Assembly (NCBI GenBank): GCA_009914755.4
Contig: CP086569.2
Span: 30,976,001 to 31,040,000, forward strand
Length of the DNA stretch: 64,000 bases
From: the human T2T-CHM13v2.0 reference genome, Homo sapiens
Reading direction: 5' to 3'
The position numbers were made by a program, and so were the translations under genes. Of this stretch, positions 43,240 to 64,000 are shown in pieces. Position 1 is the first letter of the stretch; every line of letters begins with the position of its first letter. The notes beneath the pieces are model-generated. The model saw nothing but the letters and a program-made list of their open reading frames with translations. It was not told the DNA's origin and did not search any database.

Positions 43240-43531
43240 TTTTTTTTTAGACAGAGTCTTGTCCTGTTGCACAGGGTGGAGTACAATGGCGCCATCTTTG
43301 CTCACTGCAACATCTGCCTCACGGGTCCAAGCGATTGTCCTCCCTCAGCCTCCCAGGTAGCTGGGACTACACCACACTGGGACTACACCAGCTGCCACCA
43401 TGCCTAGCTAATTTTTTGGATTTCTAGTAGTGACAGCGTTTCACTGTATTGGCCAGAAAGGTCTTGATCTCTTCACCTTGTGATCCCCTTGCCTTGGCCT
43501 CCAAATTTGCTGGGATTACAGGCCTGAGCCA
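43240..43531 (-). mobile_element. Alu (AluS-like), antisense, unit 18 copy
   Basis: Near-identical copy. It carries the variants 'tttctagtag' and 'ggccagaaagg'. Confidence 0.9.
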
Positions 43532-45659
43532 AGATCCATATTTTTTAAATGAAAAAAAATTTCAAAGGTACTCTGCTTGGTACAATAATCAAATGTATAA
43601 ACTGAGGAATAAAACATAACCATGAAACCTACTTATAAGTGCATATGGAAAATACAGAGGATAATTTTTTAAATAACATATTTTGAAAGCCTTAACTAGT
43701 AATTTGAAGAGTTGGCATTTGAAAGGCCAGTATGAATATACCTTCAAAGCAGCAACACAGGTTCCCCATGAGAAAAAGCAAACTCAGGGAAAATAAAACC
43801 ACAAAGGTTCAATCTCTTCTGACCTTTGAAAGACACAGCACAGACAGTGGTCCTTAGGACGAAGAGCAGGAGACCCCTAATTCCGTCACCATGGCGATAG
43901 GGCATAAACACTGCTGGGTGAGGGCACAATCCACATTGTGAGGTCCAACTGCTGCCAGGAAGACAGGAGTGCTTTTACATAGACCGAAAGGTCATTGAAG
44001 GCTCAGAGTTTTGTTTCAAGAACTGAATCCCAAGCCCACACGTTATTAGGCTGCGCTTCTTAAAACAAGTTATGAGATGGGAAAAAGGGCACCCACAAAC
44101 ATACGTATACATTATGCATATAATAATATACAGTATCATATATATAATATATATAACCTATGTATAATATTGTTTTACATCCTGCATCTTATATTATATA
44201 TATTGTATGAAATATAATAATTGATAATATATAAGTTTTATATTTATACAATATGACATATAGTATATATTATAATTTATGACATATATAATATATGTTA
44301 TATATCATATATAGAATATATTATACGGTTAATATACGTATTAAATATAAATTATACATTATATGTATTATATATAATATATCTGCTATATATAATACCC
44401 ATTATGCATAATATATATATTATGTCTATGTTATGTATAGTATAAAACAACATATAATAATATATAATTGTATATATAAAATGCGACATATAATATATAT
44501 TATATTTTATGACATCTGTAATATATATTATATATTATATATAATACGTTGTATGTATAATACCTATATTAAATATATATTATATGACTATGTTATTAAT
44601 TACATGTCACATATGTTATATATTATATAGTTTACATAGAATATACCGGTTACATACAATATATACTATGTTACCTATAATGTATAATTTATTACATGTA
44701 AAATAAAGAATGCAATATATTATGTGTAATTTATAATATACAATATGTGGAATGTGATATATATAACATATAATATATGATATATGATATACAGTATATG
44801 ATATATAACATATAATATATGATACCTAATATATATGATATACAATATATATTTTATGATATGTATTCTACATGTTTTATATTCTGTTATATATAACTAT
44901 TTGAAATTATATATAACTGTATAATATTTTATGTAAATATGTAATATAATATATATAACTATATAATATATTATATATAACTATATATTATGTTATATAT
45001 ACTTTTATAACTTAATTTACATAAAATATCATAGTATAATATATATTATATTACTTCATATTACATAATATATATTACATATCACCCAATATAAGTAACA
45101 TACATAATATTATAATATACATTATATTAGGTTATATTAAACATCATATATATCATGTATCATATATTCTATAATATATATTATACATTATATAATATGC
45201 ATGTTGTCTATTATGTGATATATATAACTATATATATAATTATATTATTATACATATAACTAGATAAACATGTAATTCTACATATTTTCATTTATAATAT
45301 ATAGAATTACATAATCATATATAATTATTTATATTCTATAAAAAATTATATCATTATATAAATTATAATATATAAAAATTATAATATGTACTACAAATAT
45401 ATATATTATATCTCATATATGATATAGTACCTTTGTTATATATCATAATACATATAAATGTGTATTATGTTATCTATAATTATATAATTTCATATATAAG
45501 ATGTATAATATTTATTATATATTATATATGTTATGTAATATATATAGTATATATAAGATGACACAGGATAAATATTATATACTATGACATATAAAATATA
45601 TGAGGTTATATGTTACATATAAGGCATAGCACATAACATGTAATATATATCATCTATAA

Positions 45660-45951
45660 TTTTTTTTTAGACAGAGTCTTGTCCTGTTGCACAGGGTGGA
45701 GTACAATGGCGCCATCTTTGCTCACTGCAACATCTGCCTCACGGGTCCAAGCGATTGTCCTCCCTCAGCCTCCCAGGTAGCTGGGACTACACCACACTGG
45801 GACTACACCAGCTGCCACCATGCCTAGCTAATTTTTTGGATTTCTAGTAGTGACAGCGTTTCACTGTATTGGCCAGAAAGGTCTTGATCTCTTCACCTTG
45901 TGATCCCCTTGCCTTGGCCTCCAAATTTGCTGGGATTACAGGCCTGAGCCA
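45660..45951 (-). mobile_element. Alu (AluS-like), antisense, unit 19 copy
   Basis: Near-identical copy. It carries the same variants 'tttctagtag' and 'ggccagaaagg' as unit 18. Confidence 0.9.
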
Positions 45952-60465: not shown

Positions 60466-62593
60466 AGATCCATATTTTTTAAATGAAAAAAAATTTCAAA
60501 GGTACTCTGCTTGGTACAATAATCAAATGTATAAACTGAGGAATAAAACATAACCATGAAACCTACTTATAAGTGCATAAGGAAAATACAGAGGATAATT
60601 TTTTAAATAACATATTTTGAAAGCCTTAACTAGTAATTTGAAGAGTTGGCATTTGAAAGGCCAGTATGAATATACCTTCAAAGCAGCAACACAGGTTCCC
60701 CATGAGAAAAAGCAAACTCAGGGAAAATAAAACCACAAAGGTTCAATCTCTTCTGACCTTTGAAAGACACAGCACAGACAGTGGTCCTTAGGACGAAGAG
60801 CAGGAGACCCCTAATTCCGTCACCATGGCGATAGGGCATAAACACTGCTGGGTGAGGGCACAATCCACATTGTGAGGTCCAACTGCTGCCAGGAAGACAG
60901 GAGTGCTTTTACATAGACCGAAAGGTCATTGAAGGCTCAGAGTTTTGTTTCAAGAACTGAATCCCAAGCCCACACGTTATTAGGCTGCGCTTCTTAAAAC
61001 AAGTTATGAGATGGGAAAAAGGGCACCCACAAACATACGTATACATTATGCATATAATAATATACAGTATCATATATATAATATATATAACCTATGTATA
61101 ATATTGTTTTACATCCTGCATCTTATATTATATATATTGTATGAAATATAATAATTGATAATATATAAGTTTTATATTTATACAATATGACATATAGTAT
61201 ATATTATAATATATGACATATATAATATATGTTATATATCATATATAGAATATATTATACGGTTAATATACGTATTAAATATAAATTATACATTATATGT
61301 ATTATATATAATATATCTGCTATATATAATACCCATTATGCATAATATATATATTATGTCTATGTTATGTATAGTATAAAACAACATATAATAATATATA
61401 ATTGTATATATAAAATGCGACATATAATATATATTATATTTTATGACATCTGTAATATATATTATATATTATATATAATACGTTGTATGTATAATACCTA
61501 TATTAAATATATATTATATGACTATGTTATTAATTACATGTCACATATGTTATATATTATATAGTTTACATAGAATATACCGGTTACATACAATATATAC
61601 TACGTTACCTATAATGTATAATTTATTACATGTAAAATAAAGAATGCAATATATTATGTGTAATTTATAATATACAATATGTGGAATGTGATATATATAA
61701 CATATAATATATGATATATGATATACAGTATATGATATATAACATATAATATATGATACCTAATATATATGATATACAATATATATTTTATGATATGTAT
61801 TCTACATGTTTTATATTCTGTTATATATAACTATTTGAAATTATATATAACTGTATAATATTTTATGTAAATATGTAATATAATATATATAACTATATAA
61901 TATATTATATATAACTATATATTATGTTATATATACTTTTATAACTTAATTTACATAAAATATCATAGTATAATATATATTATATTACTTCATATTACAT
62001 AATATATATTACATATCACCCAATATAAGTAACATACATAATATTATAATATACATTATATTAGGTTATATTAAACATCATATATATCATGTATCATATA
62101 TTCTATAATATATATTATACATTATATAATATGCATGTTGTCTATTATGTGATATATATAACTATATATATAATTATATTATTATACATATAACTAGATA
62201 AACATGTAATTCTACATATTTTCATTTATAATATATAGAATTACATAATCATATATAATTATTTATATTCTATAAAAAATTATATCATTATATAAATTAT
62301 AATATATAAAAATTATAATATGTACTACAAATATATATATTATATCTCATATATGATATAGTACCTTTGTTATATATCATAATACATATAAATGTGTATT
62401 ATGTTATCTATAATTATATAATTTCATATATAAGATGTATAATATTTATTATATATTATATATGTTATGTAATATATATAGTATATATAAGATGACACAG
62501 GATAAATATTATATACTATGACATATAAAATATATGAGGTTATATGTTACATATAAGGCATAGCACATAACATGTAATATATATCATCTATAA

Positions 62594-62885
62594 TTTTTTT
62601 TTAGACAGAGTCTTGTCCTGTTGCACAGGGTGGAGTACAATGGCGCCATCTTTGCTCACTGCAACATCTGCCTCACGGGTCCAAGCGATTGTCCTCCCTC
62701 AGCCTCCCAGGTAGCTGGGACTACACCACACTGGGACTACACCAGCTGCCACCATGCCTAGCTAATTTTTTGGATTTCTAGTAGTGACAGCGTTTCACTG
62801 TATTGGCCAGAATGGTCTTGATCTCTTCACCTTGTGATCCCCTTGCCTTGGCCTCCAAATTTGCTGGGATTACAGGCCTGAGCCA
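62594..62885 (-). mobile_element. Alu (AluS-like), antisense, unit 26 copy
   Basis: Near-identical copy. Carries 'tttctagtag' and 'ggccagaatgg', shared with the copies at 48080-48371 and 55337-55628. Confidence 0.9.
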
Positions 62886-64000
62886 AGATCCATATTTTTT
62901 AAATGAAAAAAAATTTCAAAGGTACTCTGCTTGGTACAATAATCAAATGTATAAACTGAGGAGTAAAACATAACCATGAAACCTACTTATAAGTGCATAT
63001 GGAAAATACAGAGGATAATTTTTTAAATCACATATTTTGAAAGCCTTAACTAGTAATTTGAAGAGTTGGCATTTGAAAGGCCAGTATGAATATACCTTCA
63101 AAGCAGCAACACAGGTTCCCCATGAGAAAAAGCAAACTCAGGGAAAATAAAAACACAAAGGTTCAATCTCTTCTGACCTTTGAAAGACACAGCACAGACA
63201 GTGGTCCTTAGGACGAAGAGCAGGAGACCCCTAATTCCGTCACCATGGCGATAGGGCATAAACACTGCTGGGTGAGGGCACAATCCACATTGTGAGGTCC
63301 AACTGCTGCCAGGAAGACAGGAGTGCTTTTACATAGACCGAAAGGTCATTGAAGGCTCAGAGTTTTGTTTCAAGAACTGAATCCCAAGCCCACACGTTAT
63401 TAGGCTGCGCTTCTTAAAACAAGTTATGAGATGGGAAAAAGGGCACCCACAAACATACGTATACATTATGTATATAATAATATACAGTATCATAAATATA
63501 ATATATATAACCTATGTATAATATTGTTTTACATCCTGCATCTTATATTATATATATTGTATAAAATATAATAATTGATAATATATAAGTTTTATATTTA
63601 TGCAATATGACATATAGTATATATTATAATTTATGACATATATAATATATGTTATATATCATATATAGAATATATTATACGGTTAATATACGTATTAAAT
63701 ATAAATTATACATTATATATATTATATATAATATATCTGCTATATATAATACCCATTATGCATAATATATATATTATGTCTATGTTATGTATAGTATAAA
63801 ACAACATATAATAATATATAATTGTATATATAAAATGCGACATATAATATATATTATATTTTATGACATCTGTAATATATATTATATATTATATATAATA
63901 CGTTGTATGTATAATACCTATATTAAATATATATTATATGACTATGTTATTAATTACATGTCACATATGTTATATATTATATAGTTTACATAGAATATAC

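What the first reader, a model, noticed from the sequence alone, without database searches (positions are those of the whole stretch)
43240..64000. Exact 3-unit (7257-bp) higher-order repeat in the right-hand part of the array
Several independent variant sites (listed in the features) recur at exactly 7257-bp spacing in both the Alu and unique segments. In the A+T block, two variant sites follow a strict (x, x, y) pattern across units 18-26.

This is the signature of a higher-order repeat produced by unequal crossing-over of a three-unit block. It is the structure known from alpha-satellite, but here at macrosatellite scale. It implies very recent expansion of this domain.
Basis: seen in the sequence. 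Interest (0 to 1): 0.6.

Follow-up and report, generated by a model that had tools for sequence, protein, structure and literature searches.

The report
Three-unit repeat block in DYZ2 satellite
The right end of this window, a stretch of the known human 2.42-kb satellite DYZ2/HSat1B, does contain a block of three neighbouring repeat units copied in tandem about 2.2 to 2.9 times, which is a real but ordinary trace of recent unequal exchange in a satellite known to evolve this way.

Summary
The window is 26.5 tandem units of about 2,420 bp. From unit 19 on, unit lengths cycle 2420/2420/2417, summing to 7,257 bp.

Ungapped comparison at lag 7,257 gives 26 mismatches in 13.3 kb (99.8%). Indel-aware unit comparison for units 19-26 gives a mean of 5.2 differences at lag 3, against 18.9 at lag 1 and 21.5 at lag 2 (exact permutation p = 8e-4). 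Exact 1,000-mers cover 38-45% of positions at lag 3 and 0-3% at lags 1 and 2.

Three unit types carry private derived variants in the same register:
- B (units 21, 24, 27): about nine window-private substitutions, three more alleles seen sporadically elsewhere, and a 3-bp deletion.
- C (units 22, 25): two sites.
- A* (units 23, 26): two sites.

Limits: the sequence is not exact. Only about 2.2 full periods are visible before the window ends. Unit 19 is A-type where C is expected, and unit 18 is not B, so the full pattern starts near 46.7-48.4 kb, not 43,240. The unit types differ by only 0.4-1.1%.

The array is DYZ2/HSat1B (a 5'-truncated antisense AluY-like element, a 40% GC segment, and an 86% AT block). 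Unequal sister-chromatid exchange in it is documented. This is a nascent local higher-order repeat in a known satellite and is of low novelty.

The parts
1..64000 (+). Tandem array of 26 complete units and 1 partial unit of about 2,420 bp (DYZ2/HSat1B-type satellite). The modal unit length is 2,420 bp (14 of 26 units).
   Evidence: Anchor k-mer spacing. GC 24.7% and one CpG per 143 bp. Matches the published DYZ2 description.
48351..55607 (+). Block copy 1 (7,257 bp): unit 21 (type B, 2,417 bp), unit 22 (type C), unit 23 (type A*).
   Evidence: Variant table and distance matrix.
55608..62864 (+). Block copy 2 (7,257 bp): unit 24 (B), unit 25 (C with extra private sites), unit 26 (A*). It differs from copy 1 at 13 positions (3 + 9 + 1), which is 99.82% identity.
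62865..64000 (+). Start of block copy 3: unit 27, cut by the window end. It is B-type at all 8 scorable B-diagnostic sites, with 0 differences from unit 24 over 1,136 bp.
45931..48350 (+). Unit 20, A-type. It sits where the A member of a preceding period would be. It differs from unit 23 at 4 sites, and from 46703 on it is identical to its lag-3 partner.
43511..45930 (+). Unit 19, A-type where the pattern predicts C. It differs from unit 22 at 9 sites, all in alignment columns 1303-2370, but from units 20 and 23 at only 3. This is the imperfect first period.
41091..43510 (+). Unit 18, of the same young subfamily but not B-type. The three-unit pattern does not extend to it.
49758..49763 (+). 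Site of the B-specific 3-bp (ATA) deletion in unit 21, between 49760 and 49761. The same deletion is in unit 24 at 57017/57018. It is what makes the period 7,257 bp rather than 7,260 bp.
   Evidence: Alignment columns 1411-1413; unit lengths.
50497..50793 (-). Alu-derived part of the unit (example copy), 5'-truncated, running across my unit boundary.
   Evidence: Local alignment to the AluY consensus (recalled from memory): positions 13-289, 77% identity including a 15-bp insertion. Weak Alu-derived mir-1268 hits on the minus strand.
48377..48945 (+). GC-richer 'unique' segment of the unit (example copy, 39.7% GC). It ends with the ACATACG junction motif at 48939.
48946..50496 (+). A+T block of the unit (example copy, 1,551 bp, 85.9% A+T).

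Best explanation
The window is a stretch of the human composite satellite DYZ2/HSat1B. This satellite has 2.42-kb units and lies on Yq12 or an acrocentric short arm; which of the two cannot be told here.

Within a young, homogenised sub-domain (units 18-26), a unit of a distinct lineage (B) came to lie among closely related units (A and C types). Out-of-register homologous exchange between sister chromatids, misaligned by three units (7,257 bp), then duplicated the block B-C-A*. At least one further exchange between misaligned block copies added a third B.

The result is a nascent three-unit higher-order repeat whose left edge lies in or just after unit 20. It may continue beyond the window's right end. 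Later point mutation and short gene-conversion tracts, most clearly in unit 25, account for the 13 differences between copies.

Shown: the periodic structure, the three unit classes in one register, and the identity of the satellite. Inferred: the exchange mechanism, the number of events, the date and the chromosome. No cellular function is implied; this is a by-product of satellite turnover.
For: Structure:
- Length cycle of 2420/2420/2417.
- 99.8% identity at lag 7,257.
- Mean differences of 5.2 at lag 3 against 18.9 at lag 1 and 21.5 at lag 2; permutation 32/40,320.
- Long exact matches almost only at lags 3 and 6.
- Three independent classes of derived alleles in one register. Polarity was checked against units 1-17 and against external consensus-like copies.
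- NJ bootstrap of 100% for 21/24 and 87% for 23/26.
- Units 18-26 have only 0-3 private singletons each, so they are the youngest part of the window.

Identity:
- 2,420-bp modal unit, equal to the published DYZ2 consensus length.
- ACATACG at the junction of the HSATI-annotated segment and the A+T block.
- 24.7% GC and one CpG per 143 bp, against the published 24% and 1 per 150 bp.
- 5'-truncated AluY-like element about 20% diverged, and an A+T block over 85% A+T.
- 98-99% identity to short contaminant contigs in 17 unrelated bacterial assemblies. This is the contamination pattern Rhie et al. describe for HSat1B.

Mechanism:
- Hallast et al. attribute expansions of DYZ2 units to unequal sister-chromatid crossing-over.
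- A pedigree study found de novo gains or losses of 2,416-4,839 bp (one to two DYZ2 units), about one per Y transmission.
- A two-unit pattern in units 2-6 of this same window shows that multi-unit offsets recur.
Against: - Only 2.2-2.9 periods are visible, so an 'array' of blocks is not shown.
- Unit 19 breaks the pattern.
- The 22/25 clade has only 41% bootstrap support.
- Unit 25 has 8 clustered private or reverted sites that need an extra event.
- B carries the genome-wide allele at column 289 while the other 24 units carry a local allele, so its origin is not a simple in-place mutation series.
- Nothing in the sequence separates sister-chromatid exchange from replication-based duplication.
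- Without reads, the correctness of the assembly cannot be checked.
Confidence: 0.75

Rival explanations
1. The block was duplicated by a replication-based process rather than by crossing-over. Candidates are large-scale slippage, break-induced replication, or template switching within the array, re-copying 7,257 bp once or twice.
For: The product would be identical in sequence to that of unequal exchange. Hallast et al. state that replication slippage and gene conversion 'cannot be ruled out' for DYZ2 dynamics. The seamless, in-register junctions seen here fit any homology-driven process.
Against: Sister-chromatid exchanges have been observed directly in Yq12 by Strand-seq, and this is the mechanism favoured in the literature. 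No junction signature such as microhomology, insertion or inversion is present to argue for template switching.
Confidence: 0.15
2. Assembly artefact. The assembler placed near-identical DYZ2 reads wrongly and created a false tandem duplication of a three-unit stretch.
For: The array is 98-99.9% self-identical with exact stretches over 2 kb, a regime in which assemblers can mis-join. No read data are available to check this.
Against: The two full copies differ at 13 positions, and the third B differs from unit 21 at one, so they are not literal duplicates. The order B-C-A* is consistent, and the three unit classes each have their own private alleles. An independent two-unit pattern exists elsewhere in the window.
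Confidence: 0.05
3. There was no block duplication. The periodicity arose through separate gene-conversion events that copied B-type sequence into every third unit by chance.
For: Interlocus gene conversion is frequent in Yq12: 29% of de novo SNVs have identical matches elsewhere. Unit 25 looks like it carries a conversion tract.
Against: It would need whole-unit conversions covering about 12 substitutions plus a 3-bp deletion spread over 2.1 kb, landing at exact three-unit spacing. It would also need matching private alleles to appear in the two other registers (C: cols 1863, 1869; A*: cols 136, 767). Placing 3 B units among 10 at exact spacing 3 has a chance of only 4/120, before the other two classes are counted.
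Confidence: 0.03

Closest known systems
DYZ2 / HSat1B satellite (human Yq12 and acrocentric short arms; formerly RepeatMasker 'HSATI')
   Same: Unit length (modal 2,420 bp, equal to the published consensus length). Tripartite unit: an A+T block over 85% A+T, a 5'-truncated AluY-like element about 20% diverged, and a GC-richer segment. ACATACG junction motif. 24-25% GC and about one CpG per 150 bp. 98-99% identity to consensus-like copies recovered as human contamination in bacterial assemblies.
   Different: The window's consensus differs from the abundant consensus-like copies at 29 of 2,350 sites (1.2%), 9 of them fixed in all 26 units. It is therefore a local sub-family, possibly a peripheral Yq12 array or an acrocentric array. 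Chromosome and species could not be established with the tools available.
Alpha-satellite higher-order repeats
   Same: A fixed series of distinguishable monomers is repeated head to tail. Copies of the block are more alike (99.8%) than the monomers within it (98.9-99.6%). Both are attributed to out-of-register unequal exchange.
   Different: The monomer is 2.42 kb rather than 171 bp. The monomers differ by only 0.4-1.1% rather than 20-40%. Only about 2-3 block copies are visible rather than hundreds to thousands. There is no link to centromere function.
Documented local expansions and contractions within DYZ2 arrays (Rhie et al. 2023, Extended Data Fig. 8d; Hallast et al. 2023; de novo structural variants in the CEPH 1463 pedigree)
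   Same: Gains or losses of whole units by unequal exchange within the same satellite. De novo events of 2,416-4,839 bp (one to two units) occur about once per Y transmission. Marker-carrying DYZ2 units have expanded to 1-17 copies in different men.
   Different: Here the offset is three units and it has been iterated, leaving a visible three-unit periodicity. I did not find a three-unit DYZ2 periodicity described explicitly in the papers I could read.
Hyper-local repeat periodicities in other classical satellites (NTRprism results of Altemose et al.)
   Same: [quoted passage not shown] This is the same idea of locally born multi-unit periods.
   Different: The HSat1 family in which that paper reports new HORs is not specified in the passage I read. 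If it is HSat1A (42-bp units), as I assume, those periods are at a much smaller scale.

Membership tests
DYZ2 / HSat1B satellite | Tandem unit of about 2.4 kb (published consensus 2,420 bp) | tested here: met
   26 units of 2,394-2,421 bp, 14 of them exactly 2,420 bp. Published length from Hallast et al..
DYZ2 / HSat1B satellite | Composite unit: an extremely A+T-rich block (over 85% A+T), an ancient 5'-truncated AluY-derived element (about 20% diverged), and a GC-richer segment | tested here: met
   A+T block of 1,551 bp at 85.9% A+T. Alu aligned to AluY positions 13-289 at 77% identity on the minus strand. 569-bp segment at 39.7% GC. Published description.
DYZ2 / HSat1B satellite | ACATACG at the junction of the HSATI-annotated segment and the A+T block; overall about 24% GC and about one CpG per 150 bp | tested here: met
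   ACATACG at 48939, and the wider junction motif is present in all 27 units. GC 24.7% and one CpG per 143 bp. Published values.
DYZ2 / HSat1B satellite | Direct sequence identity to a reference DYZ2 consensus | tested here: inconclusive
   No human reference was available. As a proxy, 17 contaminant contigs in unrelated bacterial assemblies are 98-99% identical to the unit and 99.8% identical to each other. This fits the HSat1B contamination described by Rhie et al., but those contigs are not labelled as human.
DYZ2 / HSat1B satellite | Location on Yq12 (alternating with DYZ1) or on acrocentric short arms | not testable with these tools
   The window contains only the array, with no flanking sequence. 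It is 1.2% from the abundant consensus, which is compatible with a peripheral Yq12 or an acrocentric array.
Higher-order repeat (in the sense used for alpha satellite) | A fixed ordered set of n distinguishable monomers repeated head to tail | tested here: met
   B-C-A* in units 21-23 and 24-26, then B again in unit 27, each class having private derived alleles.
Higher-order repeat (in the sense used for alpha satellite) | Identity between block copies is higher than identity between monomers within a block | tested here: met
   99.82% between blocks (13 of 7,257), against 98.9% for A-B, 99.0% for B-C and 99.6% for A-C. Permutation 32/40,320. Dot-plot test.
Higher-order repeat (in the sense used for alpha satellite) | Many block copies forming a homogeneous array | tested here: inconclusive
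   Only 2.16 full periods (2.9 counting the imperfect one) lie before the window ends at 64000. The left side shows the pattern stopping at units 18-19.
Higher-order repeat (in the sense used for alpha satellite) | Monomers within the block are substantially diverged (tens of percent) | tested here: not met
   The unit types differ by 10-27 sites per 2,420 bp, i.e. 0.4-1.1%.

The most novel reading that the evidence does not exclude
The three-unit block seen at the window's right edge is the left border of a much longer, homogeneous 7,257-bp higher-order-repeat domain inside a DYZ2/HSat1B array. That would be a true macrosatellite-scale HOR, tens of copies or more. It would be lineage-specific among men and usable as a marker to measure rates and offsets of unequal sister-chromatid exchange in Yq12.
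Probability: 0.3. Interest if true: 0.3.

Novelty: already known. Interest (0 to 1): 0.15.

Why it matters
It gives a clean, base-level example of how a macrosatellite acquires a multi-unit period. One divergent unit trapped among near-identical neighbours makes a three-unit out-of-register exchange visible. This illustrates the turnover process already inferred for Yq12 and acrocentric HSat1B arrays. Local periods of this kind could serve as structural markers of Y lineages, or as a way to date local expansions. It does not change the understanding of the satellite or suggest a function.

Tried and rejected
- Rfam scan of 48-56 kb found only sub-threshold Alu-derived mir-1268 hits and no RNA family.
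- I looked for published DYZ2 primer or probe sequences to test against the window. None were in the T2T-Y main text, and a literature search for them returned noise.
- A metagenome scan with a degenerate 35-mer was meant to count B-type against generic alleles. It returned only two contigs, one 89.5% identical and one chimeric. The pattern happened to span two window-specific fixed sites, so nothing could be said about B-type frequency.
- TRF cannot see the 2.4-kb period because its longest period is 500 bp.
- I considered extending the pattern leftward to unit 18 and rejected it: unit 18 differs from unit 21 at 25 sites and lacks every B allele.
- I considered that units 19-21 form a full first copy. 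This is rejected for unit 19, which differs from unit 22 at 9 sites but from units 20 and 23 at only 3.
- I considered periodic gene conversion and rejected it (see rival explanations).
- Dating is only order-of-magnitude. It depends on the chromosome, and conversion inflates or erases differences.
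Full report
**What the window is**

The window is entirely one tandem array. A 24-mer from the Alu part (TGGGATTACAGGCCTGAGCCAAGA) occurs 27 times and cuts the window into 26 complete units and one partial unit. Units are 2,394-2,421 bp, and 14 of the 26 are exactly 2,420 bp.

Each unit has three parts:
- A 5'-truncated Alu on the minus strand. It aligns to AluY positions 13-289 at 77% identity.
- A 569-bp segment at 39.7% GC, ending in ACATACG.
- A 1,551-bp block at 85.9% A+T.

Overall GC is 24.7%, with one CpG per 143 bp.

This matches the published description of DYZ2/HSat1B point by point:
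- A 2,420-bp consensus, the ACATACG junction, 24% GC and one CpG per 150 bp (Hallast et al.).
- An ancient AluY subunit about 20% diverged, an A+T region over 85% A+T, and a GC-richer region (Rhie et al.).

No human reference was searchable. However, a 31-mer from the unit hit 17 unrelated bacterial assemblies as contigs of 0.6-2.5 kb. These contigs are 98-99% identical to the unit and 99.8% identical to each other. This is the HSat1B contamination Rhie et al. describe.

These consensus-like copies served as an outgroup. The window's consensus differs from them at 29 of 2,350 sites, 9 of them fixed in all 26 units. The array is therefore a local sub-family. Chromosome (Yq12 or acrocentric) and species cannot be settled here.

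**Checking the observation**

Unit lengths from unit 18 onward are 2420, 2420, 2420, 2417, 2420, 2420, 2417, 2420, 2420. The 7,257-bp spacing is therefore exact from unit 19 on.

Ungapped comparison at lag 7,257 is in register from 42504 to the window end. It shows 26 mismatches in 43460-56743 (99.8%), with exact runs of up to 2,439 bp.

Unit comparison counting substitutions plus indel events:

| Lag | Unit pairs and differences |
|---|---|
| 3 | 19/22 = 9, 20/23 = 4, 21/24 = 3, 22/25 = 9, 23/26 = 1 |
| 1 | 3, 27, 23, 10, 26, 27, 16 |
| 2 | 26, 10, 27, 22, 17, 27 |

For units 19-26 the means are 5.2 at lag 3, 18.9 at lag 1 and 21.5 at lag 2. Only 32 of 40,320 unit orders give a lag-3 mean as low.

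Exact 1,000-mers cover 38% of positions at lag 3 in 43240-64000 (45% from 45931 on). They cover 3% (0%) at lag 1 and 0% at lag 2. Exact 2,000-mers occur only at lags 3 and 6. The left 43 kb shows no lag-3 excess.

**Anatomy of the period**

There are 44 variable alignment columns among units 18-27. They were polarised with units 1-17 and the external copies. They define four groups:

- **Type B (units 21, 24, 27).**
  - Nine substitutions occur nowhere else in the window: columns 99, 289, 631, 738, 1143, 1225, 2177, 2185 and, apart from unit 7, 165. Column 289 is a special case: B keeps the genome-wide allele there and the other 24 units carry a local one.
  - B alleles at 1549, 1898 and 1934 also occur sporadically in other units.
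  - B has a 3-bp deletion at 49760/49761 and 57017/57018.
  - B keeps ancestral alleles at 607, 699, 855, 1620 and 1632, where its neighbours are derived.
- **Type C (units 22, 25).** Derived alleles at columns 1863 and 1869.
- **Type A (units 19, 20, 23, 26).** Derived alleles at columns 1303, 1361 and 1902.
- **Sub-type A\* (units 23, 26).** Additional derived alleles at columns 136 and 767.

Three independent allele classes therefore sit in the same three-unit register.

The visible series is A0 (18), A, A, B, C, A* (23), B, C', A* (26), B (27, partial).

The two full blocks, 48351-55607 and 55608-62864, differ at 13 positions. Nine of these are in unit 25, clustered in columns 607-1500. 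They include three reversions to the ancestral allele, which looks like a conversion tract from a donor outside the window.

An NJ tree of all 26 units gives 100% bootstrap for 21/24 and 87% for 23/26. It gives only 41% for 22/25 and 40% for 20/23/26, because unit 19 also joins that group.

- The repeat is exact in spacing but not in sequence.
- Unit 18 is not B, and unit 19 is A-type where C is expected. The full three-type pattern starts between 46703 and 48351, about one unit to the right of 43240. Only the 'B every third unit' pattern spans units 19-27.
- About 2.2 full periods are visible, and the window ends inside the third.
- The unit types differ by only 0.4-1.1%, so the comparison with alpha-satellite HORs is shallow.

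**Mechanism**

The most likely process is homologous exchange between sister chromatids misaligned by three units, repeated at least once. This is inferred, not shown. It is the mechanism the literature proposes for this satellite:
- Hallast et al. attribute the 1-17-fold expansion of marker-carrying DYZ2 units to unequal sister-chromatid crossing-over. They note that slippage and conversion cannot be excluded.
- A four-generation pedigree showed de novo gains or losses of 2,416-4,839 bp, i.e. one to two DYZ2 units, about once per Y transmission.

In this window, units 2-6 show an analogous two-unit pattern: 2/4 differ at 14 sites and 3/5 at 3, against 23-25 between neighbours. Multi-unit offsets therefore recur.

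**Age**

The age estimate is order-of-magnitude only. Thirteen differences in 7,257 bp is 1.8e-3.
- At the published Yq12 rate of 3.86e-7 per bp per generation, this is about 2,300 generations.
- Leaving out the unit-22/25 pair, 4 differences in 4,837 bp give about 1,100 generations.
- At the acrocentric short-arm rate of 1.33e-7, the times are about three times longer.

Units 18-26 have 0-3 private singletons each, against 9-36 in units 9-15 and 17. This is the youngest part of the window.

**Rivals**

- Replication-based copying gives the same product and cannot be separated from exchange here.
- An assembly artefact is unlikely because the copies differ at 13 sites and each class has its own alleles, but it cannot be tested without reads.
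- Periodic gene conversion would need whole-unit events at exact spacing, plus matching alleles in the other two registers.

**Verdict**

It is overstated in degree, because this is a nascent 2-3-copy local structure rather than an established HOR.

The satellite, its mode of evolution and whole-unit gains and losses are all already described. A three-unit period is an unsurprising instance. I did not find it described explicitly in the papers I could read. Altemose et al. note that periodicity varies locally within satellite arrays.

Noticed in passing
window 2418-14514 (units 2-6): A separate two-unit (4,838-4,839 bp) pattern. Units 2 and 4 differ at 14 sites, units 3 and 5 at 3, and unit 6 is close to units 3 and 5 (8-9 sites). 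Neighbouring units differ at 23-25 sites. Lag 4,838 is 100% identical over 5501-6500.
   Followed up: partly
window 19355-36258 and 38679-41090 (units 9-15 and 17): An island of older, heterogeneous units. They keep the genome-wide allele at 9-17 of the 29 sites where the rest of the window is derived, and carry 9-36 private singletons each. Units 11-15 are about 2.4-3.2% from the other units and from each other, apart from the 14/15 pair. The island is flanked on both sides by one homogenised derived sub-family (units 1-8, 16 and 18-26). Unit 16, of the young type, sits inside the island.
   Followed up: partly
window 19355-21769 and 38679-41090 (units 9 and 17); 31449-36258 (units 14 and 15): Units 9 and 17, eight units apart, are each other's closest relatives (23 differences, 100% bootstrap). 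Units 14 and 15 pair with each other (37 differences). Unit 14 is 2,394 bp, 26 bp shorter than the modal unit.
   Followed up: no
window about 58632-59525 (unit 25, alignment columns 607-1500): Eight clustered changes relative to unit 22. Three are reversions to the ancestral allele and five are new alleles. One of the new alleles (col 1159) is shared with the adjacent unit 26 and one (col 1500) with unit 16. This looks like a gene-conversion tract from a donor not present in the window.
   Followed up: partly
alignment column 289 (e.g. window 48639 in unit 21): The B units carry the allele found in the external consensus-like copies (A), whereas the other 24 units of the window carry C. B is therefore partly of a lineage older than, or foreign to, the local sub-family. 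It nevertheless shares two derived alleles (cols 1120, 1328) with its neighbours, so it is a mosaic.
   Followed up: partly
L001-L017 (genome contigs); L006 5897-6920: Seventeen bacterial or archaeal genome assemblies from unrelated taxa contain this human satellite as contigs of 0.6-2.5 kb at 98-99% identity. In Nostocoides japonicum NZ_HF570958.1, a fragment of about 1 kb (35-38% GC) is scaffolded inside roughly 70% GC chromosomal sequence. This is a contamination chimera.
   Followed up: partly
L018 (metagenome contig OILO01000292.1, 2,786 bp): A copy of the whole unit only 89.5% identical to the window's units. It is either a much more diverged HSat1B sub-family (or one from another primate) or a noisy-read assembly.
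   Followed up: no
window 34529-34959 (A+T block of unit 15): TRF reports a 230-bp period with 1.9 copies (76% matches) inside the A+T block. This hints at an internal sub-repeat structure in the block, reported only in this unit at the score threshold used.
   Followed up: no
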